From assembly GCA_945870145.1 (NCBI GenBank), contig CAMBQV010000001.1, positions 495 to 64,494 on the forward strand: a stretch of DNA of 64,000 bases. Direction: 5' to 3'. Positions 36,693 to 55,341 of the stretch are shown here, piece by piece. Positions within the stretch are counted from its first letter, which is position 1, and every line of letters starts with the position of its first letter. The DNA is from Akkermansia muciniphila. GTDB taxonomy: Bacteria; Verrucomicrobiota; Kiritimatiellia; RFP12; UBA1067. Below the pieces are notes generated by a model. It was not told the DNA's origin, ran no database searches, and was given only the letters and a program-made list of their open reading frames with translations. The translations under genes and the position numbers were made by a program.

Positions 36693-38228
36693 TTACTTTA
36701 ATGGCGCGGCTTTTTCGAGTTCGCGGATGAGGGGCAGGAGCTTGTCGTAGATCGCGGCGGTCTCGGACTGAGGCAGGCAGACATCGCTCACAGGCGAGAA
36801 GGCCTCGGTCATCTTGGCCAGCGGGACGCCGTCAGCATGAGCAGCCATCATCGCGCCACCCAAAGCCGCAGAGTCAGCAACCGCGATACTCTCCACGCGG
36901 GCTTGGAAGACGTTCGCCAGTGTCTGGCGGATACCAGGACTCTTTGATGCGCCGCCGGTCACACGAATACTCTTGAAGGTACCGATCCAGGCTGCATGGC
37001 TCCTGAGGGCCAAGGCCTGGCCTTCCACAGTCGCACGGATACGCACCTCTGGCTTGGCTGCGGCAAAGTCAAAGTTCGCACGCAATCCAGGCGTCAGCAC
37101 AGGCGGGGTGATCTCGGCCTCGAACCAGGGCAGGGCCAATTGTCCGTTATTCCCGGCGGGGGTCAGCTCAAAGGCTGTCTTATCAAAGAAACTCCATTCC
37201 GCACCGGCCTCCTTGCGCACACGGTCGCGGGCCAGCGAACCATTCTTGAAGCAAGCGAGACTCATGCAACCACCGGCAGGATTTCCGAAGACGTGGCCAC
37301 ACCCCTCAGGATCCGTGCTAAACCGCTCTAACGAGGAGAAGAAGGTATCGCTCGTCCCAAGGCTGATCACGGCAACGCCAGCGCTCCAAGCGCCTGTACC
37401 AACCAAACTGGCGGGATTGTCACCCGTCCAGACCGCCACAGGGATACCGGCCTTGAGACCGTATTTTTCAAAATAGGGCTGTAACTTCCCTGCCACGCCA
37501 CCAGCAACAGGAGGCAACTTCGAAAGCAAGCCAGGGGCGGTAAACTCCGTAATCGCCGAATCCCACGTGTTGGTCTTGAGATTCAGAAGATTCATGCCTG
37601 CGCCGTCACCACGATCAATCGGCGCGTCCTTGCCGATTAGCACCGAGCAGAGGAAGGAGCTGACCAAGTGGATACGGGCGGTCTGCGCATAGTGTTCAGG
37701 CTCCTGCTTGGCGAACTTACGGATCTGGGGACCTGTAAAACGCTCAATGGCGGGAGACCCTGTATCGGCCTGGAGGCGCGCCCCAAAAGCCTTGTCCAAT
37801 TCGCGGCACTCGGCAGAGGTCGAGCTGTCCATCCAGATCGGCGAGGTCGGACGCGAGAGCGTTCCCGTCAACTGTTCCGACAGCGACGCACTTGAATTCA
37901 ACGTGGCCACAACCGTCGTGAAGGTGCTATTGAGATAGACTGAACCATGCTGCTGGCCGTCACCACCAATGGCGGCAATCTTCTCCATGGCTAGGCCGCT
38001 CTTCTGCAAACGGGACAACATCAGATCCAAGGCCGCCAGCCACATCATCGGATCCGAATGCTTCACCAGTGGATCCGGATTCGCGAGAACTCCATCCGGG
38101 CAATTGAAATGGGGCAGATCCGCCTTGAAGTTGACGCTTGCGCTACCGACGATTTTTCCTGCTGAAGGGTCAATGACAAGTCCCTTCAAACTCTGTGTGC
38201 TACTATCAATCCCTAAATAATATGACAT
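36693..38228 (-). CDS. D-xylulose kinase, eukaryotic XKS1/XYLB-like FGGY kinase
   Basis: GIDSSTQSLKG, GGDGQQHGSVY, PIWMDSSTSAECRELD, ERFTGPQIRKF, GMNLL, WTGDNPASLVG, SLGTSDT and CFKNGSLARD blocks are collinear with human XYLB and yeast Xks1 rather than bacterial XylB. Confidence 0.8.
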   Translation of the reverse strand: MSYYLGIDSSTQSLKGLVIDPSAGKIVGSASVNFKADLPHFNCPDGVLANPDPLVKHSDPMMWLAALDLMLSRLQKSGLAMEKIAAIGGDGQQHGSVYLNSTFTTVVATLNSSASLSEQLTGTLSRPTSPIWMDSSTSAECRELDKAFGARLQADTGSPAIERFTGPQIRKFAKQEPEHYAQTARIHLVSSFLCSVLIGKDAPIDRGDGAGMNLLNLKTNTWDSAITEFTAPGLLSKLPPVAGGVAGKLQPYFEKYGLKAGIPVAVWTGDNPASLVGTGAWSAGVAVISLGTSDTFFSSLERFSTDPEGCGHVFGNPAGGCMSLACFKNGSLARDRVRKEAGAEWSFFDKTAFELTPAGNNGQLALPWFEAEITPPVLTPGLRANFDFAAAKPEVRIRATVEGQALALRSHAAWIGTFKSIRVTGGASKSPGIRQTLANVFQARVESIAVADSAALGGAMMAAHADGVPLAKMTEAFSPVSDVCLPQSETAAIYDKLLPLIRELEKAAPLK

Positions 38229-38304
38229 CTTCTAGCTCCTTTTTTTAATGAGAATATGAGTTTTTATTGAAAAATACAAGTTCAGAGTCAGGGGGTGTCT
38301 GGTT

Positions 38305-39768
38305 TTAACCAAGCTCCTCAAATTTTCCTGACACAACGAGGAACTTCTTAAACAACTCATCATACTGCTGCGCAACAACCGAATCCGGCTGGTGACGTTC
38401 CGCTGGCTGGGCCAACGTGTCCATGATTGAGAAGTCCTTCCAGACACCCGTGCCAATTCCCGCCAAGACCGCTGCACCCAGCGCGGCACATTGTTGCCCG
38501 ATCGTAGTACGCATGACTTCTACGTTATAGATATCCGCCGTGAGCTGTCGTGTGAAGGCCGCGTTGGCCCCGCCTCCCACAAGAATGAGGGGCTCTTTGA
38601 CCTCTGTCAGCTTTTTCAACTCGGTCAGCACATTGCGCAATCCCAGTGCGATGCCCTCTTGGGTGGCGCGCAAAAGATCCGCGCGCGTGTGGCGAAGTTC
38701 GAGTCCAACAAAGCCCCCTCTACCCTTAGGACCTGAAAGCGTAGGTATGAAGAAAACCCCGTTTGCTCCAATCGGCGAGGTCGCGGACTCCGCATCAATT
38801 TCTTTGTAGCTCAGTTCTTTGGCCATGATGCCCTTGACCCAGTTGAAGGCCGTACCTGCCGAAAAGATGGCCAATGCGGAGACATACTGTCCGGGCGCAA
38901 CATGGTCAAAGACATACGACCGTTTCACATCGTCTAGGAGCGGCTTGGAATCGGAGACTGCGATCCAGCTCGACGACCCGAGCGAATTATAGGCGCGTCC
39001 GTCACGGAAGGCTCCTGCGCCCAAACTCATGCACGAGTTGTCCACACCACCTGCAACCACTTTGACAGACTGCGACAAACCCAACGCCTGTGCAGCTTCA
39101 GACGTCAGCGTGCCGAGCACCTGCGTGGAGGGGACGATCTTCGGCAAGACCGATGGCGGCAGCCCAGTCGCCGCAACCAAGCGCTGCGAATAGGCGCGCG
39201 CCTTTAAATCATAGACGCCACTGCCCGAGGCATACGATTGATCCGTGGCACAGACGCCCGTCAGTTTGTAGTTGATGTAATCCTTGGTGCCGAGCACAAC
39301 CGCAATCTTCTGAAACATCTCAGGTTCATGTTCCTGAAACCACATCAGCTTGAAAGCGGAATAGAGCGCGGCAGGGAAGCCGTTCCCCGTCATGCGATAC
39401 CACTCGATTTCTGGGATAGCCTTAAATACACGCTTGGCCTGTTCACCTGCGCGAGCATCCGACCAGATCGGCGTGCGGGCCCTCAGTAACATGCCCGACT
39501 TGTCCAAGGGGACGACCCCGAGGCTATGGCCTGAGATACCAATGCCGACAATCTGTTGTTTCACTTCTGCGGTAAGCGTGTCCAAGAGTTTACGGGTACT
39601 ACTCAACGTCGCTTGCCACCACGCCTCGGGTTCCTGCTCATGAAAGCCAGGGGCTGGATAATAGGTCGGGTAACTGTCGAAACCATCAGCGATGCAGGCT
39701 CCCTTTTCATCATAGAGCGAGACCTTGATGCCACCTGTGCCAAAATCATACGCCAAGAGATAGTTCAT
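38305..39768 (-). CDS. FGGY family carbohydrate kinase (pentulose/fuculose/gluconate-kinase-like; substrate unresolved)
   Basis: MNYLLAYDFGTGGIKVSLYD N-terminal ATPase motif and ILVGGGANAAFTRQL C-terminal motif. Confidence 0.75.
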   Translation of the reverse strand: MNYLLAYDFGTGGIKVSLYDEKGACIADGFDSYPTYYPAPGFHEQEPEAWWQATLSSTRKLLDTLTAEVKQQIVGIGISGHSLGVVPLDKSGMLLRARTPIWSDARAGEQAKRVFKAIPEIEWYRMTGNGFPAALYSAFKLMWFQEHEPEMFQKIAVVLGTKDYINYKLTGVCATDQSYASGSGVYDLKARAYSQRLVAATGLPPSVLPKIVPSTQVLGTLTSEAAQALGLSQSVKVVAGGVDNSCMSLGAGAFRDGRAYNSLGSSSWIAVSDSKPLLDDVKRSYVFDHVAPGQYVSALAIFSAGTAFNWVKGIMAKELSYKEIDAESATSPIGANGVFFIPTLSGPKGRGGFVGLELRHTRADLLRATQEGIALGLRNVLTELKKLTEVKEPLILVGGGANAAFTRQLTADIYNVEVMRTTIGQQCAALGAAVLAGIGTGVWKDFSIMDTLAQPAERHQPDSVVAQQYDELFKKFLVVSGKFEELG

Positions 39769-39831
39769 GCGTCATAGTATACGCGTTTGATGCGCTTATA
39801 TTCAAGGTGCATTTTTTCAATAAATCCGTAC

Positions 39832-41643
39832 TTACGTTGCCGGGATCAGGCGCAGGGCAGAGACGCGGATGTTTCTGCCCTCTGCGGTGGTCGGGCCGAA
39901 GACGAGTTGCTGCGCGCCGGGTTTCGGAAAGTCAATGACGCCCACGCGGGTGGTGCGGAAACGTGGCAAGGCACCGCCAAAGGCTTTGCGGGTTGCCCGC
40001 TCACCAGTGTCAATCAAGGGGAAGGTCACACGGGTGTCACCGCAGTTTATACCCCACTCCGAGTAATCGTCGTCAGCAGGGCAGGTGTACTCCACATCGA
40101 GGTAGAAGGAACCGGGTGCGACGGTATTGAAGTTCCACGTTACAGAAGGCTCGCTCCCTTTCCAGTCACCCACGCACTCCATGTGTTTCCAGTCGCCGAA
40201 CTTTTCCATCCAGTTGACAGCCTTTATTTCGCACCCCTTCAAGTTCGCCATGCCCATTTCCAGGGTATTGTGGCAGCCGTTCAGCACATACAAGTCACGG
40301 CGCGCATCGATGGGTCCTGACAGTTCCAATGTGATGACTGGAATGAGCGTATCAGGACGCAGCTTCGGAACGTGGAGGATGAGGAGTTTCTCTTCATGTA
40401 CGACCTTGATGATCTCCCCTTCCAGTGTCGCCCGCTTGACCTTGGACTGGAGTCCCGGCAAGATGAGCTTGCCGTTCGAGGGCCATTGGAATACATGCAT
40501 AAAAAGTGTGTTGCCGCGTGCGGTACACTCGCCCCAGGGGATCGGGCCGAAGGGGGTTGAGTCTGTACCGTGAATCGCGTCTTTATGCGCATGGACCCAC
40601 GTGCCGACCTCGCGCAGGATGCGAGCCGACTGCTCGGGGATGTGTCCCTGACCGTCAGGTCCGACATTCAGCATGTAGGTTCCGCCGCGGCTGACCACAC
40701 GGACCAGCCGTTCAGCGATCTCGCTGGGGCTTTTCCAGTTGCGGTCATACCAGGCGTAGCCCCAAGTGTCGTTGGCGGTGTCAGGTGTCTCCCACAGGCC
40801 GGGACGTGGGAGGCGCGGAATCTCCTGGTCGCCAAGCGTGTCGTAATCGCCAAGCCCGTTGCCGATGCGGCTGTTGGCGAGACACTGAGGCTGGAGTTTG
40901 TGGACAAGGTCGACGAGCATCTTGGACTCCTCGGGTGTGATGGGTCCTGGAGTGTCAAACCAGACGCCGGCAATCGGACCGTAGTTCTTCAGCAACTCCT
41001 CAAGCTGAGGAATCGCCTTGCCTTTGAGATAACGTTGGAAATCGGCTTCGCTCTCTTTAAAATCCCAGTCATTGCCGATGGCGTCGCGCTCATGCCAGTC
41101 CTGCGATTGCGAATAGTAGAAGCCCAGCCGCAGACCGCCCGTGCTACAGGCCTCAGCCAGCTCTTTCATGGGGTCACGCTTGAAGGGCGTGGCATCCACG
41201 ATATTGTAGGGGCTGGTAGCAGACTTGAACATGGCGAACCCCTCGTGGTGTTTCGCCGTGATCATGACGTGGCGCATCCCGGTGTCTTTCGCAAGCTGGA
41301 CCCACTCCTTGGCATCGAACCCAACGGGGTTGAAACGGGATGCCACCTTCTCGTATTCAGCGACCGGAATTCGAGCTCGTTTCATGATCCACTCGGCGAT
41401 TCCATACTGGGACGTGTTGTTCCATTTGTTTCCTAGTTCGGAATAAAGTCCCCAGTGGATAAACATCGCAAAGCGCGAATCCTTTAGCCACGCCCCGCGT
41501 ACGGTGTTGGTCATTGATTTCCCCGTGCCCCACATGGCTGTCGAGGTGCCATCCACGGAGATCACACGCTCAGCCGCGCAGGAAAAAATGCACGAGAAGA
41601 TCAGCAAGCCTGCTGTGGTTCGGAATAATAGATTATTGTTCAT
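39832..41643 (-). CDS. alpha-L-fucosidase, GH29, secreted, with C-terminal beta-sandwich domain
   Basis: Signal peptide; FAMFIHWGLYS, ITAKHHEGFAMF and GNDWDFKESE motifs typical of GH29; 603 aa. Confidence 0.8.
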   Translation of the reverse strand: MNNNLLFRTTAGLLIFSCIFSCAAERVISVDGTSTAMWGTGKSMTNTVRGAWLKDSRFAMFIHWGLYSELGNKWNNTSQYGIAEWIMKRARIPVAEYEKVASRFNPVGFDAKEWVQLAKDTGMRHVMITAKHHEGFAMFKSATSPYNIVDATPFKRDPMKELAEACSTGGLRLGFYYSQSQDWHERDAIGNDWDFKESEADFQRYLKGKAIPQLEELLKNYGPIAGVWFDTPGPITPEESKMLVDLVHKLQPQCLANSRIGNGLGDYDTLGDQEIPRLPRPGLWETPDTANDTWGYAWYDRNWKSPSEIAERLVRVVSRGGTYMLNVGPDGQGHIPEQSARILREVGTWVHAHKDAIHGTDSTPFGPIPWGECTARGNTLFMHVFQWPSNGKLILPGLQSKVKRATLEGEIIKVVHEEKLLILHVPKLRPDTLIPVITLELSGPIDARRDLYVLNGCHNTLEMGMANLKGCEIKAVNWMEKFGDWKHMECVGDWKGSEPSVTWNFNTVAPGSFYLDVEYTCPADDDYSEWGINCGDTRVTFPLIDTGERATRKAFGGALPRFRTTRVGVIDFPKPGAQQLVFGPTTAEGRNIRVSALRLIPAT

Positions 41644-41663
41644 CGAGTTTTATCCTTTGTCTA

Positions 41664-44126
41664 CTATTGGGTTTTCAGTCGCCATGTGGAGGTCGGTTTG
41701 TTGTCCAGCGGCAGATTGTAGGTCAAGCTGTAGGTTCGGCTGTCATCGTCATAGTCGGCCTGCCAAAAATCATTTCCGTGGACGCTCTGATCGAGCCGAA
41801 CCTCTTTGCCATCCACCACTTCCGACAGCACGGCATCCTTGATCGATGCGAGCCCTTCAATGCGGAGTGGTACATATCCGAGGCCGCCTGCGATGGTAAC
41901 CTCGACAGCGGGCTTTTCGGCCTGGATCAAAATTGGGTAGCGGTTCAAGAGCTTTCCACCGCGCGCCGTCACACGCAGGTCGTTTCCGATCGCCTCGCGA
42001 TAGGTCGTCTTCCAGGATGACGGATTTTCGACGAGATGTTTTCTGAAATTTTCGTTCGGGCCATAGTAGTCATCAGCCGTGCGGTGAAGGGTAATCCACT
42101 CGACATCCATCTCGATCATGTCGCCGGGTTTGAAGGCCGTGACCTCGCGTGGCGGCACGAGGAGAAGGTCCACGTTCGAAATCTCCATTTTGGGGCCGTG
42201 CACAGGTACGGAGACTGGGAAGGAGACCGTCGGCTGCGTATAGATCTTGCCGTTGATCATGGCCGTATAGGAGCGGATCACAAAGGCGCGGTAGCCGGTT
42301 CCCCAGTCACGTCCATTGGTGTGTTTCGCGCCCGGGAATGCGCCCCACCAGGGACCCTTTCCTTCCAAGGCGAGACGGTCGATGAAGCACTGGCCGGCCT
42401 TCAGGCCTAAGGGGACGTCCTGCTCGGCGAGGAGTCCGTCCCGGTTGCCGTAGGCGACTTTGGGCGTGGCGTACTGGCCTGTCTTCCCCTGTCGATAGAA
42501 GGAGATGTTCGTGTTTGCGACAGGCACGTTAAATGTGTATCGGAAGTGCTGGAAGGTCCGCGCATAGTCGTCCGTGCGCAGGGTGTGAACTTCAGCCTTC
42601 ATTGCAACTTCACGCTGTGCGCCATAGAATCCTGAGTAACGGACATCGGTGAGGCAGGGACCCTGCGACAGATAGGCGGTCTTGAGATCTTTGAACGCGA
42701 GCTTGTTTCCCTCCGCATCCAGCATCTCGAACCAGTCGCCGCCCCAGCCGGCATCGGTCCAGTTCCACTTCTGGCCATTCAGGCCGTTTCGTGCCATGAG
42801 CATGCGCACGTCCGTCACGACCAGATTCACAAGACTCATGTCCATATCGAAGCAGATCGTCTCGCCCCAGCAGCCGATGGCCAGCTGGTCCCAGCGTCCG
42901 TTGCCGCCTTTGTTGTGATAGCCAATCAGGGACAACTGAGCATGACTCGAAGAGGGCAGCGTGCCATAGAAGCCATACGCCACGCGCAGGAGGTACTCCG
43001 TACGTCCCGGCTTTACGAGCAGGGAGGTGTAGGCCATCAGATAGGCGCCCATGGCCTCATAATGCCAGTTCTTACTCAGTTGCACAGGGATGCCCGTGGG
43101 CCGTCCCTCCTTGTCGCAGAGCATGGGGCAGAGGCCAGTGATATTGGCCGGCGAACGGAAGTCGAGCAGGAAGGGAATCTCTTTTGTCTGCGTCTCCGTA
43201 CTGTCAACCGTAATCAAAAAATCGTCATAGTCCCGGATGTCCGTATACCCAGCCTTGAACGTACGCTTGATTTTTGGCGCCTTTGCTACAAAGCAACTCT
43301 TTGTCGGCTCATACGCCACAGGGAAGACGTTGTTCGTCCCTGAGGTCACTTGAACAGAGAACTTTTCCGTAGAAATGACTCTCCCAGGATATGCATACGT
43401 CAGGGTCACCGCATTCGTTATCGAAGGAAGCCATACGTCAGCAAATGCTTTTTCACTCCGGCAGTCAACGCCGCTTCCCTTGAGCTGAAAAGCAATTTTT
43501 GCATTGTTCCATCCAGCTCCGTCTCCTACGGCCGGCGCGAGTGAAGCGGTCAGCGTCAGGGAGTCCGGCCAGGCGACCAGGTCCAAGTTTGCTTTGCAGT
43601 TCAACGTTTTTCCTGAAGCGGTTTGAAACTTGAGATCTTCAAACTCGAAATGTTGAACAAAGCGTCCTGATTCCCACATTTTTGCGAAGCCGAGTCGCCT
43701 GGGGTCAGGATCTGTGCCTGCTGCGCAACTGACCGCGCGATACTGCTCGCCGTTCACCTCGAGCATGAGGAGTAGCTCTGGCGTGGGGAGCCGGTATAAG
43801 GGATCTGTACTGGCCGTCAGCATGGATGTGTAACTCAAAGGCCCTGCCACTTCGGAGGAGAAGCCCGCGTTTACAAAGTTGGCCATGTCCAAGGTAAAAG
43901 CATAGCAGCTGGCCTGGATCGCTAGAATCTCCGGGCTCTTATCCGTCTTGTACTTGCGCCAGCCGTTCAGCCAGCAGGCGTATGTGTAGCCGGAGGCACG
44001 CAGGGGTTGTATTGCCGGAATAGGTTCCGCTTTCTTTTCGATCCCTTGCTTGCATCCGAAAAACAGGCCTGAGAAGGAACCCAGAATAACAATCATCACT
44101 ACAGTCATTAAATAGTTTTGCCTCAT
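41664..44126 (-). CDS. hypothetical 820-aa lipoprotein, no recognisable family (possible novel glycan-active enzyme)
   Basis: Lipoprotein signal MTVVMIVILGSFSGLFFGC. Full-length ORF with no overlap conflicts, embedded between the GH29 and GH95-like genes on the same strand. Confidence 0.55.
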   Translation of the reverse strand: MRQNYLMTVVMIVILGSFSGLFFGCKQGIEKKAEPIPAIQPLRASGYTYACWLNGWRKYKTDKSPEILAIQASCYAFTLDMANFVNAGFSSEVAGPLSYTSMLTASTDPLYRLPTPELLLMLEVNGEQYRAVSCAAGTDPDPRRLGFAKMWESGRFVQHFEFEDLKFQTASGKTLNCKANLDLVAWPDSLTLTASLAPAVGDGAGWNNAKIAFQLKGSGVDCRSEKAFADVWLPSITNAVTLTYAYPGRVISTEKFSVQVTSGTNNVFPVAYEPTKSCFVAKAPKIKRTFKAGYTDIRDYDDFLITVDSTETQTKEIPFLLDFRSPANITGLCPMLCDKEGRPTGIPVQLSKNWHYEAMGAYLMAYTSLLVKPGRTEYLLRVAYGFYGTLPSSSHAQLSLIGYHNKGGNGRWDQLAIGCWGETICFDMDMSLVNLVVTDVRMLMARNGLNGQKWNWTDAGWGGDWFEMLDAEGNKLAFKDLKTAYLSQGPCLTDVRYSGFYGAQREVAMKAEVHTLRTDDYARTFQHFRYTFNVPVANTNISFYRQGKTGQYATPKVAYGNRDGLLAEQDVPLGLKAGQCFIDRLALEGKGPWWGAFPGAKHTNGRDWGTGYRAFVIRSYTAMINGKIYTQPTVSFPVSVPVHGPKMEISNVDLLLVPPREVTAFKPGDMIEMDVEWITLHRTADDYYGPNENFRKHLVENPSSWKTTYREAIGNDLRVTARGGKLLNRYPILIQAEKPAVEVTIAGGLGYVPLRIEGLASIKDAVLSEVVDGKEVRLDQSVHGNDFWQADYDDDSRTYSLTYNLPLDNKPTSTWRLKTQ

Positions 44127-44182
44127 TTTTAACCTTCCTTCTCCAGTGGCTCTCTGCGCGGATCATATCCCGACCAGAGATC

Positions 44183-47023: not shown

Positions 47024-47103
47024 TTTTTTAACTACCCCTCGCTCGCTTCACAAACACCCCTTACTGTTCAGGAAGTTTGAACGCTCTGTCGAAGACCGAT
47101 AAA

Positions 47104-49902
47104 CTAACGCTTCAGTTTGGACCACACCTTGACGAGTAGCACCTTTTCTTTCCCTATATTAAACGGCCCCGGCGAGGGTGTTTCCGCATTCCTCTTCTCG
47201 CCGAAGTAGTCGGTGTCAAGCCGATAAGGCGTTCCATCTGGCTGCTCGAAAGGCGCATCCGAACGGGTTGCCTTGCCGAGCAGGGCGCTGGTGATGAGGG
47301 TTCGTTTGACCTTTTCCTGCCAAGAGGGGTCCACGTTCATCTCCAGCCACCAGCCATCGGCTTTCTCAACAAGTAGGATGTCTGGCTCAAAGGTTTCCGC
47401 AACAACCGCGTCCTTGTCTTGTACTGAAGGTTTGGCTCCTGCAAGAAAAACATTGCCGGTTGCCGTGATGGCGAACGTGTGTTCGTTGTAAACAGAGAGC
47501 TTTTTGGGATGGCTGAACAGATTGTTGTAGAACCGGTCGTCATGCTGATCAACCCCCACGCCGACCCCGCCCCACTGATCCATCAAGGCTTTACGGGACT
47601 CGGCAGTCACCACTTCGAAATCAGCGACAAAATCTTTCCAGGCCTCGCCGCCACAATTGATCCGAAGGGCAAAGGGCTTCGATGGCTCACGCTCTTGGGT
47701 TCCGACGACCTCAATCCCGGCAATGCTTGGAAATTCACGCTCCCGGATAAACCCGATGCGCAGCACCCCATCCTCAACCCGCACCTTCTCCTCGACAAGA
47801 TCAAGCGCCCGATTCTTGCCAGCTACTGCTATGAGATCCAACCCGTTCGTCAGGGTTCGTCCTTGGAGCGTAATCCCGAAGCGGCGTTGTCCTGGCTTGT
47901 TATAGAAGGGTTCGTTGAATTTGAGTGTCACGCAATAGAGCCCTTTGGGGACATCCAGACGGTAGCCTTCGCTTCCGTAACGAATGGTCTGATAGACTGG
48001 GTCCTGTTCTGTTTTCTCAACAGGCTCAGTAAAGAGCGCCTTCTGTCCGCCTAGTGCACCGAAGTTGCTTGATGCTAGTTTAGTACTCACGATATCTGTA
48101 CTGTGCGGTTTAAAAACAGGTGTTTTTCGCGCCGTGAGATCCGCCCAGATATCTTGTGTGCCGCGAATCAGATTATGCACATAAGCACCACCACCACTCG
48201 CATCCAATACGCCGCGATTGGAGAGGAGAATATTGTTGTCGATGAGCATCGGGCCATGATTCATCTCGAACATGAAGTCATTGCTGTTGTCATGCAACAG
48301 GTTGCCGGTCACGCGCGCGCCCTGCGCCATCCAGTCGAGCCAGAGACCGCCCCAGTGTCCGCAGCGGTAAATATGGTTTCGGCTGATGACAGTATCCACT
48401 GCGCCATGCAGCTTGATGCCAGCGGTTTCGCAACCTCCGTAGGGATGGTGCTGCGTGATGTCATGGATTTCGTTCCCTGTGATCAGTGAAAAACTACAGC
48501 CCAGGCTCCCGTTGATTCCACCTTGGTCGCAGTTGTAAATATGGTTGCCTCGTACAACATGGCTCCCAATGTTCTCGCGCATCCAGCCCTTTTCCAGGCC
48601 AAGACGGATCGTTCGGTTATAGTTGAAGGTGTTATCAAACTCGTCACCGTGCTTTCCGAGCGTCACGCCGACACACGTGGAAAAACGGACCGTGTTGCTC
48701 TCGATGATCCAGCCCTTTGACCAGTGCGTGCCGATCAAACCGATCTGCTCAGCGGTCGGCGGTGACCACGGCGTGGCAGCCTGCTCCAAGGTAAAGCCCC
48801 TGACCGTAATGTAATTCCGTCCCGGCTTGTCGGGATAAAAGACCGTCTTGCGCACATTGACCTCCACGAGCGCCTCGTTCGGGTCAACACCCTTGAACTG
48901 CGCCCAGAGGGTGGTGGTGTCCGTGTCGACCTTGGCAAACCAGTAGCCAGGATCGTTCGCACTGTTCGCCGGCGCGCTCGGTTCGGCCCTGCAAACCAGG
49001 ACAATCCTCTGCTTTCCGGCAACCTTTGTGATCGGCGTACGGAAGGATTGGAAATGAGTCCATTCCGCGGTCACGGTCGGACGGCAGATCCCCAGCACAA
49101 CGCCTTCGGGACTCTCTCGGCGGATCTCCAAAAAACCCCCGCCGACCGGTGAAGCGAGCGAGAGCGTCAGGAACTCCGTGCCGTTTCCACAGTCCACGTC
49201 ATCATAAGCTAGCCAGTTCCCGTTCTCTAGGTGTCCTACACAGCTCTTGCCCTCCGGCAACTCAAGAAACTTAACCTCCCCTTTCTTGGACGAAAACCGA
49301 GACGCCTGAACAACCCCCGATCCTTCCGGTTGAAGGGACACCACATTCAGCAGTTCCTGTTCGTCCTTGTCTGTGGCACCCGTGAGTGCGGACTTCACAA
49401 CAACGGACTTGCGGGCCGCCTCTTTGAGCCAGATGCCATTCACATACACAGCACCGGTGTGATAGGGCTGCCGGGTTTCATACCAATCCCCCTTGATCAG
49501 GTCGCGGCACGGATTGAAATCGCCGAAGAACCTGTTCGGGAGCGTGACACACCAGGTATCGTCCTCTACCTTCTTCCATCCTGTCACGCGCTCAGAGCCC
49601 TTGATGGTGACCTTTTCGCCAGGGGCCGCCTGATAAACAATACGCTTGTCATCAGATGTTCCGCCGCGAGGCGGATTGACGCGCTCGCGGTAAACCCCTT
49701 CGTGTATGGTGATCACATCCCCGGGTTGCGCCAGGGCCGATGCCGCGGAAATCGTCTTCAAGGGTGCCGATGCCCTCCCGTCATTGCCATCGCTGCCCGT
49801 GACTGATACGTGGTAGGTCTGTATACCTTCGGCTCCTTCTGTTGCACAGACGAACAGTGATAGGCTGGCTAGCACAGCCAGATTAAATAGCAGTCTCTTC
49901 AT
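47104..49902 (-). CDS. secreted right-handed parallel beta-helix protein (pectate-lyase-like fold) with C-terminal malectin-like carbohydrate-binding domain
   Basis: Signal peptide; N-terminal SVTGSDGNDGRASAPLKTISAASALAQPGDVITIHEGVY (beta-helix cap). Repeated NxxxxGxxxHN-type coils (GNHIYNCDQGGINGS, GNEIHDI, RNHIYRCGHWGG). C-terminal YRLDVPKGLYCVTLKFNEPFYNKPGQRRFGITLQG is malectin-like. Confidence 0.6.
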   Translation of the reverse strand: MKRLLFNLAVLASLSLFVCATEGAEGIQTYHVSVTGSDGNDGRASAPLKTISAASALAQPGDVITIHEGVYRERVNPPRGGTSDDKRIVYQAAPGEKVTIKGSERVTGWKKVEDDTWCVTLPNRFFGDFNPCRDLIKGDWYETRQPYHTGAVYVNGIWLKEAARKSVVVKSALTGATDKDEQELLNVVSLQPEGSGVVQASRFSSKKGEVKFLELPEGKSCVGHLENGNWLAYDDVDCGNGTEFLTLSLASPVGGGFLEIRRESPEGVVLGICRPTVTAEWTHFQSFRTPITKVAGKQRIVLVCRAEPSAPANSANDPGYWFAKVDTDTTTLWAQFKGVDPNEALVEVNVRKTVFYPDKPGRNYITVRGFTLEQAATPWSPPTAEQIGLIGTHWSKGWIIESNTVRFSTCVGVTLGKHGDEFDNTFNYNRTIRLGLEKGWMRENIGSHVVRGNHIYNCDQGGINGSLGCSFSLITGNEIHDITQHHPYGGCETAGIKLHGAVDTVISRNHIYRCGHWGGLWLDWMAQGARVTGNLLHDNSNDFMFEMNHGPMLIDNNILLSNRGVLDASGGGAYVHNLIRGTQDIWADLTARKTPVFKPHSTDIVSTKLASSNFGALGGQKALFTEPVEKTEQDPVYQTIRYGSEGYRLDVPKGLYCVTLKFNEPFYNKPGQRRFGITLQGRTLTNGLDLIAVAGKNRALDLVEEKVRVEDGVLRIGFIREREFPSIAGIEVVGTQEREPSKPFALRINCGGEAWKDFVADFEVVTAESRKALMDQWGGVGVGVDQHDDRFYNNLFSHPKKLSVYNEHTFAITATGNVFLAGAKPSVQDKDAVVAETFEPDILLVEKADGWWLEMNVDPSWQEKVKRTLITSALLGKATRSDAPFEQPDGTPYRLDTDYFGEKRNAETPSPGPFNIGKEKVLLVKVWSKLKR

Positions 49903-49945
49903 AAACTATTGTCTCGGACGTGGATGTTGCCAAGCAAGGTGCCGC

Positions 49946-52900
49946 TTATAAGAAACTGATCATCGTACCGACGGGCGAATACTTCAGGAGTAGCGCATTG
50001 CTGTTTGTCTCGACTTTGTAGTCCCCATGAGGACCCGCCAATGCGCTTTTGTCCACCACGAAACGGTCAGATGAGAAACCAATGATCCCGCCACTTGCCA
50101 CTGCCAGCGTCCATGTATAGCTCCGGCCTGAGGTAAAATTCGCCGGCTGGCCTGGCACGGCGCCATTTAGCGTCACCAGCTTGACGGTGCAGGTTGTGGC
50201 GGCGAAAAGATCCAGCACACCGTTGACGGTCATTGTGTCGTATCCCGTGCCTGCGGCACCTGTCGCATCATTCATCTCGCAGGTGAGTTTCCCTCCCGTG
50301 TTCCAAACCTGTCCGCCTGTCGTCAGCGTGCCGATGAGTGAACCGGGGGAGAGGGTTCCGCTGTTGGTCACGATCCCTGAAACCGTTCCGTTTCCGGTCA
50401 AGGTTCCCAAGGAGGTGATGAGCACGGAGCCGCTTCCCGTGGCGCTGCCTGCGGTATTGCTGACGCAAAGCATACCCCCACTGATCGTTGTCAGTCCTGA
50501 ATAGGTGTTGTTAGTGCCACTCAAGACAAGCGTGCCGGTGCCGACCTTGGTCAGCGCTAGCGTACCCGCGGTATTCTTGATCGCGCCGCCGAAGGTCGTG
50601 GTGTCGTTGTCGTTACCCACCGTCAGGGTGGCGACACCGGAGATCGTGTTATTCACCACGCTGCTGCCGGTGCCGCTGCTGGAAAGACCATTGATGGTTT
50701 CATTGTTTCCGGCAAGGTCGAAGGTCGCAGTATTGGGGCTGATGGGGTCGAAGGAGAGGTCGCCTTTTCCGGAACCGTCCGGAATGACGCCTGCCGCCCC
50801 GAGTTTCAACGTGCCACTAGCGATCCTGGTGCCTCCGGCGTAGGTGTTGGCGCCGCTTAGAACCTGGACAGATGCCCCAGCTCCCGCAATATACAACTCG
50901 CCTGGGCCGTTGATGGTTCCGCTGAAGATCGCCCCGCTGAAGTATGAGGGCATACTCAGCGACAGGCTGGAGCCTGAAGGCAGGTTACTCACGCTACCGG
51001 CTCCGCTGAGGTATCCAACCCCTTCGGCCTTGCTATTCAGGTCAAAGGTGCTGCCGACTGCGATGTCAACGCGCACGTAGTCGCTGATGCAGTGCTGATT
51101 CTGTGCCAGCTTGACGGTGCTGTTTCCTTTGACAAAAAGGGTCGCAGACCCGTTTCCATAGATACCTTCCATGAACTTGTTGTATCCCTCATACAAGAGA
51201 TTCAGGGTTCCGCCTCCGGTCACAATGACAGAGTAGTTCGGGTTCGCGACTGCCAGCTTTCGCGTAGTCAATGTCTGGCCGCTCGCAATGTTAATCGTCA
51301 GGTTGCCGGACGCGAGTTCCATGCGGTCGTCACCGCCCTCGGCCTGAGCGATCGTGGCGCTGGTATTGACAATAATGGACGGCCCCGTACCGCCAAAGGA
51401 GAGCGTATTGACCCCGGCCACCGCACTCTGGTCAATCGTGTAGTTTCCGGAACCCGGCGCGTTAAAAACGAGACCGTTGAGGGTGATGGTGCCGCTTTGG
51501 GTGATGCTTCCCGCTGCGCCGCTGTTAGCCCCGATAATTGCCACGTCCGTTATTGTGTTGCCCCAAGCACCGTATGTGGAGCCGTTGAGCCAGTTAGCGC
51601 CGCCTGAAGCGACCCAGGAACCAGCACCGTCATTCAACGGCGCCACGCCGTCTGCATCCCAGGTATACGCCTTCGGGCCGGTCTGGACTGTTAAGACCCC
51701 TGTGCCCTGAAAATACATATCGCTCTTGTTGTCGGCTGCGCTGGAGGTCGACCCCCAGGTGCCTGCTGCCTTCGGAACGCCATCGAGCATGAGCTGCTTT
51801 ACGGTCTGATTGATACTGCTGTCCAGATCCAATTTTCCGGGATAATCAATAGAGACTACTGTGGCCGGATTCAGGCTGGCTCCGGTGGCAAGCCGCAGCA
51901 CACCGTTATTGATCGTCGTTGCCCCGGCATATTGGCACAGACCCGAGAGCGTCTGCATGCCACTGCCCGTCTTCACAAGATTCATCACCGTGCTCAATGC
52001 GGCCGCATTCGTCACGATTGTTCCCGAAAACGTTCCGCTCCCATTGTCCACACCGACTGTAACTGTGACATTGTTCCACTGCTGCGCCTTGGTGATGATA
52101 CCACTTCCCGTAAGCGCATCGACATACACCGCATTCCCGTCCCGGAGATCGAACTTACCATCCACATTCATATCCGCGAGATTCTGCAAAAGCCTTATTT
52201 TTTGCCATTCCCCGTTGTAGAGTTCGCTGCCAGACTGAATGTCAATCACGCCGCCGGAACCGAGCGAGAGGTTAACAATGCCACCGTTACTACCTGCGAA
52301 CCGTCCGCCTGATATACGAAGCGTGCCGGAACCTGAAATTGTATGCGTGCCCGGCGGGGTCTGTCGATCACCTTCAAGATGTAACACCGACCCGGAGGCG
52401 ATCGAGTAGTTCAGAAACTTGTTGTTCCAATAATCCCACAAAAGACGTAGCGTCCCGCCTCCTGTAACAAAGGCGGTCGAATTCGCGTTGGCACCCTTCA
52501 TCCTTCGCGTGGTCAACGTCTGTCCACTGGCGATGTTCACCGTCAGTGTATCCCCAGCGAACGCAATGTTGTCGTCGTCTTCCCATTGATTCTGATCGAT
52601 CAAGGCGCTGCTATTGACTTCTATGGCCGGTGCCGTGCCGCCAAAGGAGAGCACATTGGCTCCTGGCGAGTACTGGCTAAGGGTGTAGCTACCGGATCCA
52701 GGGGCGTTGAACGTGAGTTTGTTGAGGATGTTGGTGCCGCTCTGCCAAATGGTGCCCCCAGCTCCGCTGCCCACCCCTATGATGGCTTTGTCCGCCGTGG
52801 TATTGCCCCAGGCGCCGTAGGTGGATCCGTTGAACCAGTTGGCACCGCCGGAGGAAACCCACGCGCCGCCACCGTCATTCAGGGGTGCCCCGCCGCTGGC

Positions 52901-52999
52901 ATCCCACGTGTAGTCTGTTGCCCGGATAGTCGAACTCACTGACAGAATAAAGAGTGAGCTAAGCGCCATACATTTCGTCTTTTGATTTCTTACGTTCAT
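49946..52999 (-). CDS. giant secreted autotransporter-associated beta-strand (PATR) repeat protein
   Basis: Internal duplication TDYTWDASGGAPLNDGGGAWVSSGGANWFNGSTYGAWGNTTADKAIIG / KAYTWDADGVAPLNDGAGSWVASGGANWLNGSTYGAWGNTITDVAIIG. Repeated GGGTLxL and GTLTL units. GGGAGGA RBS then ATG at 52999 (MNVRNQKTKCMALSSLFILS signal). The track ORF starts at 53149. Confidence 0.7.
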   Translation of the reverse strand: MNVRNQKTKCMALSSLFILSVSSTIRATDYTWDASGGAPLNDGGGAWVSSGGANWFNGSTYGAWGNTTADKAIIGVGSGAGGTIWQSGTNILNKLTFNAPGSGSYTLSQYSPGANVLSFGGTAPAIEVNSSALIDQNQWEDDDNIAFAGDTLTVNIASGQTLTTRRMKGANANSTAFVTGGGTLRLLWDYWNNKFLNYSIASGSVLHLEGDRQTPPGTHTISGSGTLRISGGRFAGSNGGIVNLSLGSGGVIDIQSGSELYNGEWQKIRLLQNLADMNVDGKFDLRDGNAVYVDALTGSGIITKAQQWNNVTVTVGVDNGSGTFSGTIVTNAAALSTVMNLVKTGSGMQTLSGLCQYAGATTINNGVLRLATGASLNPATVVSIDYPGKLDLDSSINQTVKQLMLDGVPKAAGTWGSTSSAADNKSDMYFQGTGVLTVQTGPKAYTWDADGVAPLNDGAGSWVASGGANWLNGSTYGAWGNTITDVAIIGANSGAAGSITQSGTITLNGLVFNAPGSGNYTIDQSAVAGVNTLSFGGTGPSIIVNTSATIAQAEGGDDRMELASGNLTINIASGQTLTTRKLAVANPNYSVIVTGGGTLNLLYEGYNKFMEGIYGNGSATLFVKGNSTVKLAQNQHCISDYVRVDIAVGSTFDLNSKAEGVGYLSGAGSVSNLPSGSSLSLSMPSYFSGAIFSGTINGPGELYIAGAGASVQVLSGANTYAGGTRIASGTLKLGAAGVIPDGSGKGDLSFDPISPNTATFDLAGNNETINGLSSSGTGSSVVNNTISGVATLTVGNDNDTTTFGGAIKNTAGTLALTKVGTGTLVLSGTNNTYSGLTTISGGMLCVSNTAGSATGSGSVLITSLGTLTGNGTVSGIVTNSGTLSPGSLIGTLTTGGQVWNTGGKLTCEMNDATGAAGTGYDTMTVNGVLDLFAATTCTVKLVTLNGAVPGQPANFTSGRSYTWTLAVASGGIIGFSSDRFVVDKSALAGPHGDYKVETNSNALLLKYSPVGTMISFL

Positions 53000-53103
53000 A
53001 ATCCTCCCTTTTTCGTTTCGGAATACCCGCTGCATTCTAGCCAGCATAAATAGCCCCATACGACTTTCTGTCAGTATCGCATAACCGTTCCTCTTTGAAT
53101 ACA

Positions 53104-53150
53104 GACAATTTGTGCAAATATCGGACAATTTGTGCAATTGGACGTGCAAA
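53104..53150. promoter_or_regulatory. direct repeats GACAATTTGTGCAA x2 (20-bp periodicity) plus partial third, in divergent promoter between PATR gene and XylR-like regulator
   Basis: 53104-53117 and 53124-53137 are identical 14-mers; GACGTGCAAA follows at 53141-53150. Direct-repeat half-sites are typical of AraC/XylR operators. Confidence 0.4.
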
Positions 53151-54310: not shown

Positions 54311-54560
54311 AAAAGTATTCGAAGTGGCTGGGGTCGTTATCGGTTTTATAGGGCCGATTCTGATCGCGCTCCAAATCCGTGTCGAGTGGCTCAGTCAGAC
54401 GCCCTCATCACTCTCTCCCGCCTATCTCGGAGGTTTTCTCTTGGTCTATTTCTTCTGGTTTCTCTATGGTGTCCGGTTCAACCGCTTTGCGGTCTGGTTC
54501 GGAAACCTTATGGGGATTATCTTACAAACGATCCTCTTAATCCTTGTGTTAGCACTCTGA
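54283..54560 (+). CDS. small 3-TM membrane protein, SemiSWEET/PQ-loop-like (tentative)
   Basis: MILSRIPEKVFEVAGVVIGFIGPILIALQIRVEWLSQTPSSLSPAYLGGFLLVYFFWFLYG... 92 aa; WFLYG matches the SemiSWEET WxxYG motif; ALQ sits in place of the PQ motif. Overlaps the 3' end of the xylR-like gene in another frame. Confidence 0.4.
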
Positions 54561-54610
54561 CTACCGCAACAATTCTAATTATGGCGTGGGATACGGATAC
54601 GCTATACCCA

Positions 54611-55294
54611 TTAATAACTGTCACCGCTGGTTACAGCGCCTTCGAGAATCGCACGGGCGGTCCGTACGCCGATCCCGAAGCGGCGGACACCTCGTTCGTA
54701 CATCGCGAGGAGCGTCTGGAGATCCTTCACGCCACCCGCTGCCTTGACCTGACAGCGGTCACCTACGGCCTGCTTCATCAGAGTCACATTCTCCAGTGTC
54801 GCACCTGTAGGTGCCCAGCCTGTACCGGTCTTCACCCAGGAGGCGCCTGCTTCGACACACCATTCGCAGGCCCGGACAATCTCGTCAGGCGTCAACCAGT
54901 GACACTCCAAAATGACCTTGACTGGCAGACCCCTGGAAGCTTGTATCACGGAGCGGACATCGTTCACGTAGGCACCTTTGTTATTGGCCTTGAGCCAGGC
55001 GATATTATTGACCATGTCAATTTCCCGACACCCCATGGACACAAGCTCCTTCGCGACGACCACCTTGGTCGCAGTGGTTTCTGCTCCGCCCGGAAATCCG
55101 ACTGCTCCTCCAGCAAAGACTGTACTCCCGCCCAATTTTGAAATCAGGTAGGGCGTATGTGCCGGAAGCGCGAAGACGCAGATACAACCATACTGCTTGG
55201 CCAGCTCAGCAGATTCTTTGATCTCTTCCATCGTACTATCCGCGCGCACCGCGCTGATATCCATCAGCTTCGCAATCTCATTCGTTGTCATCAT
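54611..55294 (-). CDS. deoC: deoxyribose-phosphate aldolase (DeoC/LacD family)
   Basis: LMDISAVRADSTMEEI..., ...VKTGTGW..., catalytic-Lys region VKAAGGVKDL; RBS GGGGAGA then ATGATG. The track ORF extends to 55336. Confidence 0.8.
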   Translation of the reverse strand: MMTTNEIAKLMDISAVRADSTMEEIKESAELAKQYGCICVFALPAHTPYLISKLGGSTVFAGGAVGFPGGAETTATKVVVAKELVSMGCREIDMVNNIAWLKANNKGAYVNDVRSVIQASRGLPVKVILECHWLTPDEIVRACEWCVEAGASWVKTGTGWAPTGATLENVTLMKQAVGDRCQVKAAGGVKDLQTLLAMYERGVRRFGIGVRTARAILEGAVTSGDSY

Positions 55295-55341
55295 CGTCTC
55301 CCCAACTAACGCACTAACGCAATAACGCACTAACACACTTC

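What the first reader, a model, noticed from the sequence alone, without database searches (positions are those of the whole stretch)
36693..53150. Roughly 17-kb same-strand cluster for a fucosylated (possibly sulfated) glycan, rich in unassigned giant secreted proteins
The minus-strand run contains a PATR autotransporter-like giant, a beta-helix plus malectin protein, a GH95-like protein with LamG insert, an 820-aa lipoprotein of unknown family, a GH29 fucosidase, an FGGY kinase and a eukaryote-type xylulokinase. A divergent XylR-like regulator sits beside it, and a sulfatase (22286-23767) and three Tat-Gfo/Idh/MocA paralogs are nearby. Only the GH29 and the kinases can be assigned with confidence. 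The three roughly 900-aa proteins are candidate new CAZyme families or adhesins for fucoidan- or mucin-type substrates.
Basis: partly seen in the sequence, partly recalled or inferred. Interest (0 to 1): 0.6.

Follow-up and report, generated by a model that had tools for sequence, protein, structure and literature searches.

The report
Fucose/xylose glycan-degrading island in a PVC bacterium
A 15-kb strain-variable gene island encodes exported enzymes that trim fucose, methyl-fucose and xylose from a complex glycan; most of the "unassigned giants" belong to recently described enzyme families, so the locus is useful but not a new kind of system.

Summary
The minus-strand gene run is real (seven ORFs, 36693-53149, gaps 20-80 bp), but it is a composite. 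A metagenome contig 96.5% identical in DNA joins deoC directly to the FGGY kinase gene. Window 39770-54636 is therefore a ~14.9-kb accessory island inserted into a conserved IclR-SDR-DeoC-kinase operon, and both kinases lie outside it. The island holds a XylR-type regulator, a SemiSWEET-like ORF and five exported proteins.

- GH29 is an alpha-L-fucosidase.
- The "GH95-like + LamG" protein is GH139 (520 bits to PDB 9HMB), with the catalytic Gln-Asn and Glu intact.
- The "beta-helix + malectin" protein is GH120 (433 bits to XylC), with both catalytic residues conserved, plus CBM6 and malectin inserts.
- The 820-aa lipoprotein has no Pfam, NCBIfam or PDB sequence match. It belongs to a large, mostly PVC family (1153 clusters at 50% identity). 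It is 30% identical (E 1e-60) to GenBank WKR37939.1, "glycoside hydrolase" of Wenyingzhuangia aestuarii, probably the GH187 endo-fucanase founder; I could not verify that identity.
- The PATR protein lacks an autotransporter barrel.

The same gene set recurs in another PVC genome. A fucose-rich glycan target is supported. Sulfation is not shown for this island, and "three new CAZyme families" is not supported.

The parts
39770..54636 (.). Accessory glycan-utilisation island (~14.9 kb) inserted into the deoC-kinase spacer
   Evidence: Contig L086 (96.5% DNA identity) aligns to window 59053-54637 and then continues at 39769-38360. In L086 the deoC stop is followed by GGAGCAGCAC and the kinase ATG. 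L087, L122 and L130 also lack the segment. No junction repeats were found, and GC is 0.556 against 0.54-0.55 in the flanks.
49946..52999 (-). PATR (autotransporter-associated beta-strand repeat) protein, first gene of the operon. It has a signal peptide and an internal duplication, and no beta-barrel domain.
   Evidence: Three PATR repeats and no other Pfam hit, so no PF03797 barrel. Residues 68-424 and 485-900 are 49% identical. A 59% orthologue heads the related locus L166.
47104..49902 (-). GH120-family beta-helix glycosidase (beta-xylosidase family) with CBM6 and malectin inserts
   Evidence: 433 bits, E 2.5e-128, to XylC 3VST. XylC D382 and E405 (catalytic roles from my own knowledge) align with query D523 and E546. 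Pfam finds GH120_ins, CBM_6, Beta_helix and Malectin.
44183..47023 (-). GH139-family (2-O-methyl-alpha-L-fucosidase family) enzyme with a Laminin_G_3 insert (about residues 306-495)
   Evidence: 520 bits to 9HMB and 351 bits to 9HYQ. Q554-N555, the acid E693, W803, D852, N764 and E766 are conserved. W162 is replaced by A173, W490 by Y630 and N729 by D856 (PMC12282258).
41664..44126 (-). 820-aa lipoprotein: all-beta, mutarotase-like supersandwich core, large PVC-wide family, probable GH187-like glycoside hydrolase
   Evidence: No Pfam, NCBIfam or PDB sequence hit. More than 870 homologues, 371 species genomes, 1153 clusters at 50% identity. AF2 pLDDT 82.6, all-beta, with supersandwich fold hits only. 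30% identity, E 1e-60, to WKR37939.1.
39832..41643 (-). GH29 alpha-L-fucosidase with a C-terminal extension
   Evidence: Pfam Alpha_L_fucos 261 bits over nearly the whole profile. 465 bits to GH29 structure 9RZY. GH29 genes lie directly next to homologues of the 820-aa protein in 11 of 81 loci.
53132..54310 (+). XylR-type regulator (periplasmic-binding-protein fold + AraC HTH), divergent from the operon
   Evidence: Pfam Peripla_BP_3, HTH_18 and HTH_AraC. Orthologues of 73-87% identity lie beside homologues of the 820-aa protein in L003, L004 and L084.
54288..54560 (+). SemiSWEET-like small membrane protein (candidate sugar transporter), inside the island
   Evidence: Pfam MtN3_slv, E 1.2e-4, 22.5 bits (cut-off 23.7), profile positions 12-79 of 87. 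A 62% identical ORF follows the XylR orthologue in L004.
38305..39768 (-). FGGY kinase K2: flanking gene, the downstream half of the split IclR-SDR-DeoC-kinase operon, not an island gene
   Evidence: XylB-like at 354 bits, below the cut-off of 380. deoC lies directly upstream of K2 homologues in 30 of 40 loci. The junction is shown.
36693..38228 (-). Human-type D-xylulokinase K1: flanking core gene
   Evidence: 329 bits to 4BC2. Its 90%-identity cluster has 72 members, annotated xylulokinase. It does not follow K2 in L087 or L088.
54611..57194 (-). Upstream half of the split operon: DeoC (54611-55336), SDR (55342-56076), IclR regulator (56277-57194)
   Evidence: TIGR00126 deoC 187 bits, above the cut-off of 117. 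Pfam adh_short_C2 and IclR. Collinear with L086 and L087.

Best explanation
Window 39770-54636 is a strain-variable, PUL-like island of an anaerobic PVC-superphylum bacterium (Lentisphaerota/Verrucomicrobiota-like). It has landed in the 12-bp spacer between deoC and an FGGY kinase gene. One arm carries a XylR-type sugar-sensing regulator and a SemiSWEET-like transporter ORF. The divergent arm is a five-gene operon of signal-peptide proteins that together take apart a fucose-rich, xylose-decorated glycan (an algal or microbial fucan/FCSP-type or pectin-like heteroglycan). The proposed order of action is as follows. The PATR beta-strand-repeat protein sits at the surface and binds or scaffolds. 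The 820-aa lipoprotein acts as the backbone-cleaving hydrolase, on the strength of its homology to a probable GH187 endo-alpha-1,3-fucanase. GH120 removes beta-xylosyl decorations, guided by its CBM6 and malectin modules. GH139 removes alpha-linked (2-O-methyl-)fucose-type caps by an inverting mechanism (Asn555 base, Glu693 acid). GH29 removes remaining alpha-L-fucose. Shown here: the gene content, the family assignments, conservation of the catalytic residues, the island boundaries, and recurrence of the gene set in another genome. Inferred: the substrate, the endo-acting role of the 820-aa protein, the roles of the PATR and SemiSWEET proteins, and co-transcription. The adjacent kinases are not island genes. 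K1 could still handle xylulose derived from released xylose.
For: Family assignments: with residue mapping against PMC12282258. Island boundaries. Conserved gene set: in GCA_964584205.1 the order is PATR 59%, GH2, GH139 79%, GH120 73%, GH2, XylR 73%, URO-D-like, GH29 40%, 820-aa protein 58%. In L003 the order is XylR, GH106, DLH esterase, 820-aa homologue, GH29. In L083 it is PATR, LamG protein, sulfatase, GH29, 820-aa homologue. Family-level context of the 820-aa protein over 81 loci: GH29 in 21, sulfatase in 35, DLH/AXE1-type esterase adjacent or fused in 12 or more. Fusions occur with NPCBM, F5/8-type-C, LamG, BD-FAE, PATR and T9SS tails. Homology to WKR37939.1 'glycoside hydrolase [W. aestuarii]': E 1e-60. 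The all-beta model fits the statement that GH187 is beta-sheet dominated (PMC12534559). SemiSWEET.
Against: No sulfatase, endo-fucanase of GH107/GH168, fucose isomerase, fuculokinase, fuculose-phosphate aldolase or fucose permease lies in or next to the island. That WKR37939.1 is Fun187A is circumstantial: organism, size, submission type and, from my own knowledge, accession date. Identity to it is only 30%, so the activity may differ. The only GH139 activity known is on RG-II chain B, and the closest solved homologue was inactive (PMC12282258). Sulfatases are very abundant in PVC genomes, so 35 of 81 loci may be near background. Co-transcription was not tested, and the promoter/terminator scan was uninformative.
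Confidence: 0.65

Rival explanations
1. One reading: a single ~17-kb operon, kinases included, for a sulfated fucoidan- or mucin-type glycan, whose three roughly 900-aa proteins are new CAZyme families or adhesins.
For: Same-strand run with short gaps. GH29 is present. A sulfatase is in the window. The 820-aa family is often next to sulfatases elsewhere.
Against: The kinases lie outside the island. GH139 and GH120 are established families. The sulfatase is 16 kb away behind housekeeping genes. No mucin-type enzymes (GH33, GH20, GH84, GH89 and the like) were found in the window.
Confidence: 0.1
2. The island targets plant pectic side chains (RG-II chain B-like 2-O-methyl-fucose, xylogalacturonan beta-xylose) rather than algal or microbial fucans.
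For: The only characterised GH139 activity is a 2-O-methyl-alpha-L-fucosidase acting on RG-II (PMC12282258). Related loci add GH2, GH106 (rhamnosidase) and an esterase. GH28-like neighbours occur in some loci.
Against: The Trp triad needed for the RG-II chain B oligosaccharide is not conserved (W162 replaced by A173, W490 by Y630, PMC12282258). None of the other RG-II families (GH78, GH127, GH137-143, GH28, PL1) is in the island. Family-wide neighbours are sulfatases and GH29/GH95 in marine fucan degraders such as Pontiella, Lentimonas, Rhodopirellula and Rubritalea.
Confidence: 0.2
3. The 820-aa lipoprotein and the PATR protein are non-catalytic surface glycan-binding or scaffold proteins (functional analogues of SusD/E/F), not enzymes.
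For: Only beta-supersandwich fold matches, and that fold is often an accessory domain in GHs. The protein is a lipoprotein. The PATR protein has no catalytic domain.
Against: The 820-aa family keeps at least 50% identity across phyla, with invariant polar and acidic residues (H355, E422, D439, D520, E676 and others). It is itself fused to CBMs (NPCBM, F5/8-C, LamG) and to esterases, as catalytic modules are. A homologue is deposited as 'glycoside hydrolase'. The supersandwich is catalytic in GH186 OpgG/OpgD.
Confidence: 0.2
4. The 820-aa family is not GH187 but a still unclassified enzyme family (WKR37939.1 being some other W. aestuarii protein).
For: No held paper links the accession to Fun187A. 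No Pfam or NCBIfam model and no solved structure matches.
Against: The submitter's name is 'glycoside hydrolase'. The record is a stand-alone direct submission from the species that yielded Fun187A. Its size fits 101 kDa after removal of the signal peptide and T9SS tail (PMC11943901). GH187 homologues are reported in Rhodopirellula-type Planctomycetota, where this family also occurs (PMC11685898).
Confidence: 0.3

Closest known systems
CAZy GH187 endo-alpha-1,3-L-fucanases (founder Fun187A, Wenyingzhuangia aestuarii OF219)
   Same: The core of the 820-aa protein (residues 305-808) is 30% identical, E 1e-60, to W. aestuarii 'glycoside hydrolase' WKR37939.1. The predicted fold is all-beta, as reported for GH187. 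The genomic company is GH29, sulfatases and esterases.
   Different: Identity of the accession with Fun187A is unverified. The window protein is a PVC lipoprotein without a T9SS tail. Identity is low, so specificity may differ. The island has no sulfatase.
GH139 2-O-methyl-alpha-L-fucosidase BT0984 (9HYQ) and Verrucomicrobium sp. GAS474 SDT91673.1 (9HMB)
   Same: DUF5703_N beta-sandwich plus (alpha/alpha)6 toroid. Gln-Asn, Trp and Asp of the -1 subsite are conserved. Unlike SDT91673.1 (Thr551), the window protein keeps the catalytic acid Glu (E693).
   Different: A 190-residue Laminin_G_3 domain is inserted between the N-domain and the toroid. Two of the three Trp-triad residues are missing. 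N729 is replaced by Asp (D856), as in GH95. The genomic context is not an RG-II PUL.
GH120 beta-xylosidase XylC (Thermoanaerobacterium saccharolyticum, 3VST)
   Same: 433-bit match across the beta-helix. The residues aligned with XylC D382 and E405 are conserved as D523 and E546.
   Different: A CBM6 insert (about residues 163-310) and a malectin insert (about 607-786). It carries a signal peptide and so is exported. Length is 932 aa against 638.
Fucoidan/FCSP PUL-like clusters of Verrucomicrobiota and Planctomycetota (Lentimonas CC4; strains 892/913, PMC11685898; PMC8857213)
   Same: No SusC/D pair. Exo-fucosidases combined with uncharacterised hydrolase-like proteins. AraC-type regulators. 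PVC host.
   Different: Small (15 kb). No sulfatase, GH95, GH141, GH107 or GH168. The host is an anaerobe (PFOR and PFL in the flanks). GH120 is included.
GH186 OpgG/OpgD beta-1,2-glucanases
   Same: Best fold-level matches to the conserved core of the 820-aa protein (probability 1.0, about 300 aligned residues). This is a precedent for a catalytic beta-supersandwich.
   Different: TM-score at most 0.39 and 5-9% identity. No sequence relationship.

Membership tests
GH29 | Full-length match to the Alpha_L_fucos catalytic domain and to solved GH29 enzymes | tested here: met
   PF01120, 261 bits, profile positions 23-343 of 345. 465 bits to 9RZY and many other GH29 structures.
GH29 | Catalytic nucleophile Asp and acid/base Glu | tested here: inconclusive
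   The VWFD(230)TPG motif aligns with the same motif in 9RZY. That this Asp is the nucleophile rests on my own knowledge of GH29. The acid/base residue was not mapped.
GH139 | DUF5703 N-domain plus (alpha/alpha)6 toroid homologous to BT0984 | tested here: met
   PF18961 231 bits. 9HMB 520 bits and 9HYQ 351 bits.
GH139 | Catalytic base Asn (N412), helper Gln (Q411), catalytic acid Glu (E561), and -1 subsite W683, D723, N639, E641 | tested here: met
   Query N555, Q554, E693, W803, D852, N764, E766 (numbering from PMC12282258).
GH139 | Trp triad (W162, W403, W490) linked to recognition of the RG-II chain B oligosaccharide | tested here: not met
   Only W403 is kept (W547). A173 and Y630 occupy the other two positions. 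This marks a subgroup specificity, not family membership.
GH120 | Beta-helix catalytic domain homologous to XylC, with catalytic Asp and Glu | tested here: met
   E 2.5e-128. LWLD(523)W and FMFE(546)MNHG align with XylC D382 and E405. The residue roles are from my own knowledge of XylC.
GH187 | Significant sequence similarity to the catalytic domain of a GH187 member | tested here: inconclusive
   Clear homology to WKR37939.1, 'glycoside hydrolase' of W. aestuarii. That this record is Fun187A/GH187 could not be checked. No CAZy or dbCAN library was available.
GH187 | Endo-alpha-1,3-L-fucanase activity on sulfated fucan | not testable with these tools
   Needs an enzyme assay.
Type V autotransporter | C-terminal beta-barrel translocator domain (PF03797) | tested here: not met
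   Only PATR repeats were found, even at E up to 1. A few distant PATR proteins do carry PF03797, but this one does not.
XylR (E. coli type) | Periplasmic-binding-protein-like sensor plus C-terminal AraC HTH | tested here: met
   Peripla_BP_3 at residues 119-276 and HTH_18 at 306-384. The ligand is unknown, and no NCBIfam XylR equivalog hit was found.
Bacterial xylulokinase XylB (TIGR01312) | Score above the equivalog cut-off | tested here: not met
   K2 scores 354 and K1 scores 219 against a cut-off of 380. K1 instead matches human xylulokinase 4BC2 at 329 bits.
SemiSWEET (MtN3_slv) | About 90 aa with a single three-helix MtN3/PQ-loop unit | tested here: inconclusive
   22.5 bits against a cut-off of 23.7, E 1.2e-4. 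Conserved next to the XylR orthologue in L004.

The most novel reading that the evidence does not exclude
The PVC clade of the 820-aa family holds at least 371 species and keeps at least 50% identity across phyla. It is only about 21-30% identical to its Bacteroidota relatives. It could be a functionally distinct, still uncharacterised glycoside-hydrolase (sub)family whose catalytic domain is a mutarotase-like beta-supersandwich. It would work hand in hand with GH29 on fucose-containing glycans, including in non-marine anaerobes that lack sulfatase partners. On this reading WKR37939.1 is either not GH187, or GH187 is far larger and more diverse than the few marine endo-fucanases characterised so far.
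Probability: 0.35. Interest if true: 0.6.

Novelty: new member of a known kind. Interest (0 to 1): 0.4.

Why it matters
Fucose-rich glycans (fucoidans, FCSPs) are among the most recalcitrant marine and microbial polysaccharides, and PVC bacteria are their specialist degraders. This locus offers three things. First, a compact, conserved five-enzyme set suitable for biochemical reconstitution. Second, a GH139 from outside Bacteroidota that keeps its catalytic acid, unlike the only solved verrucomicrobial homologue, which could reveal a second substrate for that family. Third, evidence that the family of the 820-aa protein, invisible to Pfam and NCBIfam, is very widespread in PVC genomes and tightly linked to GH29. 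If it is GH187, annotation pipelines are missing over a thousand sequence clusters of putative endo-fucanases. The clean insertion into an operon also documents strain-level gain of a glycan-degrading island.

Tried and rejected
- Pfam at E up to 5 on 44 family members gave nothing consistent. The profile search against PDB sequences gave 0 hits at E up to 10.
- The promoter/terminator scan did not differ from shuffled sequence.
- The island junctions show no direct or inverted repeats and no GC shift, and no integrase or transposase is present, so the insertion mechanism is unknown.
- Literature searches found nothing for DUF5703, for locus tags of family members, for PDB codes 9RZY/9RZX, or for WKR37939. 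The GH187 founding paper is not held, and the supplements of PMC11685898 are not held.
- I considered K2 as a fuculokinase and rejected it: 142 bits to the fuculokinase model against 354 to XylB, and it belongs to a DeoC-kinase pair.
- I considered GH174 for the 820-aa protein and rejected it provisionally. A GH174 structure is reported solved (cited in PMC12534559), yet no PDB sequence or fold match appeared. I could not confirm that the structure is deposited in the PDB copy searched.
- I could not decode the substrate of the SDR-DeoC-FGGY kinase operon. Its neighbours elsewhere are mixed: by eye they look like Zn-ADH, TIM-barrel isomerase, OYE, VOC and ABC-transporter proteins.

Full report
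**Observation.** Pfam confirms each descriptor: two FGGY kinases, a GH29, a DUF5703_N + Laminin_G_3 + GH95-like protein, a Beta_helix + Malectin protein (which also carries a GH120 insertion domain and CBM6), three PATR repeats in the 1067-aa ORF, and no hit for the 820-aa protein. The divergent regulator has the XylR architecture, a periplasmic-binding-protein fold plus an AraC HTH. The sulfatase and the three Gfo/Idh/MocA paralogues with twin-arginine signals are present but scattered. The rest of the window is housekeeping for an anaerobe: PFOR, PFL with its activase, CstA, a P-type ATPase, RNase Y and exonuclease VII.

**Two of the "unassigned giants" belong to known CAZy families.**
- The 946-aa protein matches PDB 9HMB (520 bits) and 9HYQ (351 bits). 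These are the two GH139 structures of McIver et al. 2025 (PMC12282258).
  - I mapped that paper's residues through the HMMER alignment. The helper Gln and catalytic-base Asn (Q554, N555), the catalytic acid (E693), and W803, D852, N764 and E766 are all conserved.
  - The window enzyme is closest to the verrucomicrobial homologue SDT91673.1, which was inactive and has Thr in place of the acid. The window enzyme keeps the Glu.
  - Two of the three Trp-triad residues tied to the RG-II chain B substrate are replaced (A173, Y630). N729 is Asp (D856), as in GH95. A LamG domain of about 190 residues is inserted.
- The 932-aa protein matches the GH120 beta-xylosidase XylC (3VST) at 433 bits. The residues aligned with XylC D382 and E405 are conserved (D523, E546). 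CBM6 and malectin are insertions.
- The GH29 is unremarkable.

**The PATR protein.** It has a signal peptide if translation starts at Met51. It contains a 49%-identical internal duplication, three PATR repeats and no autotransporter barrel. Its homologues are the generic "autotransporter-associated beta strand repeat" proteins of PVC bacteria. Only three are full-length relatives.

**The cluster is a composite.**
- A search for relatives of kinase K2 in metagenome contigs showed that a deoC gene sits directly upstream of K2 homologues in 30 of 40 loci. In the nearest relatives the order is IclR-SDR-DeoC-K2.
- Contig L086 is 96.5% identical in DNA. It aligns to window 59053-54637 and then jumps straight to 39769-38360. 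In L086 the deoC stop codon is followed by GGAGCAGCAC and the K2 start codon.
- Window 39770-54636 (14.9 kb) is therefore an insertion into that spacer. It carries the XylR-type regulator, a small ORF, and the PATR, GH120, GH139, 820-aa and GH29 genes.
- Three more distant relatives (L087, L122, L130) also lack the segment, so insertion here is more parsimonious than deletion there.
- No junction repeats, mobility genes or GC shift were found.
- K2 and the human-type xylulokinase K1 (4BC2, 329 bits) are flanking genes. So is the DeoC-SDR-IclR block at 54611-57194.
- The small ORF inside the island (54288-54560, + strand) is SemiSWEET-like: MtN3_slv at 22.5 bits, just under the cut-off. It is conserved after the XylR orthologue in L004.

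**The island genes are a functional unit.**
- On a 28-kb contig of another PVC MAG (GCA_964584205.1) the order is a PATR orthologue (59%), GH2, GH139 (79%), GH120 (73%), GH2, the XylR-type regulator (73%), a URO-D-like gene, GH29 (40%) and the 820-aa homologue (58%).
- In a 6.1-Mb genome (OW818680.1) the order is XylR, GH106, DLH esterase, 820-aa homologue (89%) and GH29 (91%).
- In a Lentisphaeraceae MAG the order is PATR, LamG protein, sulfatase, GH29 and 820-aa homologue. That block sits immediately upstream of SDR-DeoC-K2. This second, independent juxtaposition with the same operon is unexplained.

**The 820-aa lipoprotein.**
- It has no Pfam, NCBIfam or PDB sequence match, even with a 44-sequence profile or at E up to 5.
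- The family is large. There are more than 870 hits, with the best 120 all at least 50% identical. It occurs in 371 species-level genomes, and the 80 loci returned are all PVC apart from one Pelolinea MAG and a few records with no phylum named in the title. It forms 1153 clusters at 50% identity.
- Invariant motifs include SKNWH, WDQ, WGET and DYYGPN.
- AF2 gives a confident all-beta model (pLDDT 82.6, pTM 0.86). Foldseek against PDB finds only galactose-mutarotase-like beta-supersandwich domains: OpgG/OpgD of GH186, the GH36 N-domain, the YidC P1 domain, GH38 and LacZ domain 5. TM-scores are at most 0.39, for the whole protein and for the conserved core alike.
- Over 81 loci the recurrent neighbours are GH29 (21 loci, 11 directly adjacent), sulfatases (35 loci) and a roughly 640-aa DLH/AXE1-type esterase that is adjacent or fused. 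GH95-like and GH28-like genes also occur.
- Fusion partners are CBMs (NPCBM, F5/8-type C, LamG), esterases (BD-FAE), PATR repeats and T9SS tails. That is the behaviour of a catalytic CAZyme module.

**Link to a known family.**
- Searching with a T9SS-tailed Bacteroidota member retrieved GenBank WKR37939.1, "glycoside hydrolase [Wenyingzhuangia aestuarii]". It is 1059 aa and exists only as a stand-alone nr record.
- Residues 305-808 of the window protein align to residues 343-855 of that record at 30% identity, 210 bits, E 1e-60. Nineteen of the polar, charged and aromatic residues invariant across PVC, Bacteroidota and other clades are R155, Q349, S351, K352, W354, H355, Q397, W412, E422, D439, R441, W456, R517, D520, R523, E676, Y688, Q780 and Q789.
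- W. aestuarii OF219 is the source of Fun187A (101 kDa), the founder of the GH187 endo-alpha-1,3-L-fucanases (PMC11943901). GH187 is described as beta-sheet dominated (PMC12534559). GH187 homologues are reported in Rhodopirellula-type strains (PMC11685898), a group in which this family also occurs.
- I could not obtain the Fun187A accession, so membership in GH187 is probable (about 0.6-0.7) but unverified.

**Synthesis.** My best model is a strain-variable island that degrades a fucose-rich, xylose-decorated glycan. It would use a probable endo-fucanase-like hydrolase, three exo-glycosidases (GH120, GH139, GH29), a surface PATR protein, a sugar-responsive XylR-type regulator and perhaps a SemiSWEET importer. 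Sulfation of the substrate is suggested only by family-level context elsewhere. The island has no sulfatase, and the window's sulfatase is unlinked. No fucose catabolic genes are nearby. An RG-II or pectin target remains a minority alternative.

Noticed in passing
window 38305-39768 and 54611-57194; loci L086-L127: A widely conserved deoC + FGGY-kinase gene pair, often with an SDR and an IclR or GntR regulator, of unknown substrate. deoC lies directly upstream of K2 homologues in 30 of 40 loci. The neighbours vary and by eye look like Zn-ADH, TIM-barrel isomerase, OYE, VOC and ABC-transporter proteins. GH29 + 820-aa clusters have landed beside or inside this operon twice, independently (this window and L083).
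   Followed up: partly
window 54288-54560 (+): A 90-aa SemiSWEET-like ORF overlapping the end of the XylR-type gene, just under the Pfam MtN3_slv cut-off. It is conserved next to the XylR orthologue in L004.
   Followed up: partly
window 62644-63711 (+); L084 6888-8147: A URO-D-family gene lies immediately upstream of GH29 and the 820-aa homologue in a related locus, and another lies about 8 kb from the island in the window, next to a Tat-Gfo/Idh/MocA gene. URO-D-like proteins include corrinoid methyltransferases, so a link to methylated sugars such as 2-O-methyl-fucose is conceivable but was not tested.
   Followed up: no
window 41664-44126, protein residues 387-429: The most conserved stretch of the 820-aa protein (YGTLPSSSHAQLS...WDQLAIGCWGETICFDMD) is the least confidently modelled part in both AF2 runs (pLDDT below 50). 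It may be an active-site or ligand-dependent loop region.
   Followed up: no
window 57055-60015 (-): A 986-aa protein with a hydrazine-synthase alpha middle domain (PF18582) whose ORF overlaps the start of the IclR ORF by 140 bp. It is conserved upstream of IclR in L086 and L087. Its function is unknown.
   Followed up: no
window 13217-14599, 20577-21914, 61241-62587: Three Tat-signal Gfo/Idh/MocA oxidoreductases. Two of them show weak similarity (118-139 bits, cut-off 750) to the BT_2158-family glycoside 3-dehydrogenase model. They may be periplasmic sugar oxidoreductases.
   Followed up: partly
window 39776-39805 (-): A sigma-70-like match (TTGAAT, 18-nt spacer, TATACT) lies at the island's edge, just upstream of K2, which lost its tight coupling to deoC through the insertion. 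The scan overall was not above chance.
   Followed up: no
window 44183-47023, residue D856: The GH139 has Asp where BT0984 has N729. This is the position of the Asp that activates the catalytic Asn in GH95 (D766 of AfcA), so the enzyme may have a GH95-like catalytic arrangement.
   Followed up: partly
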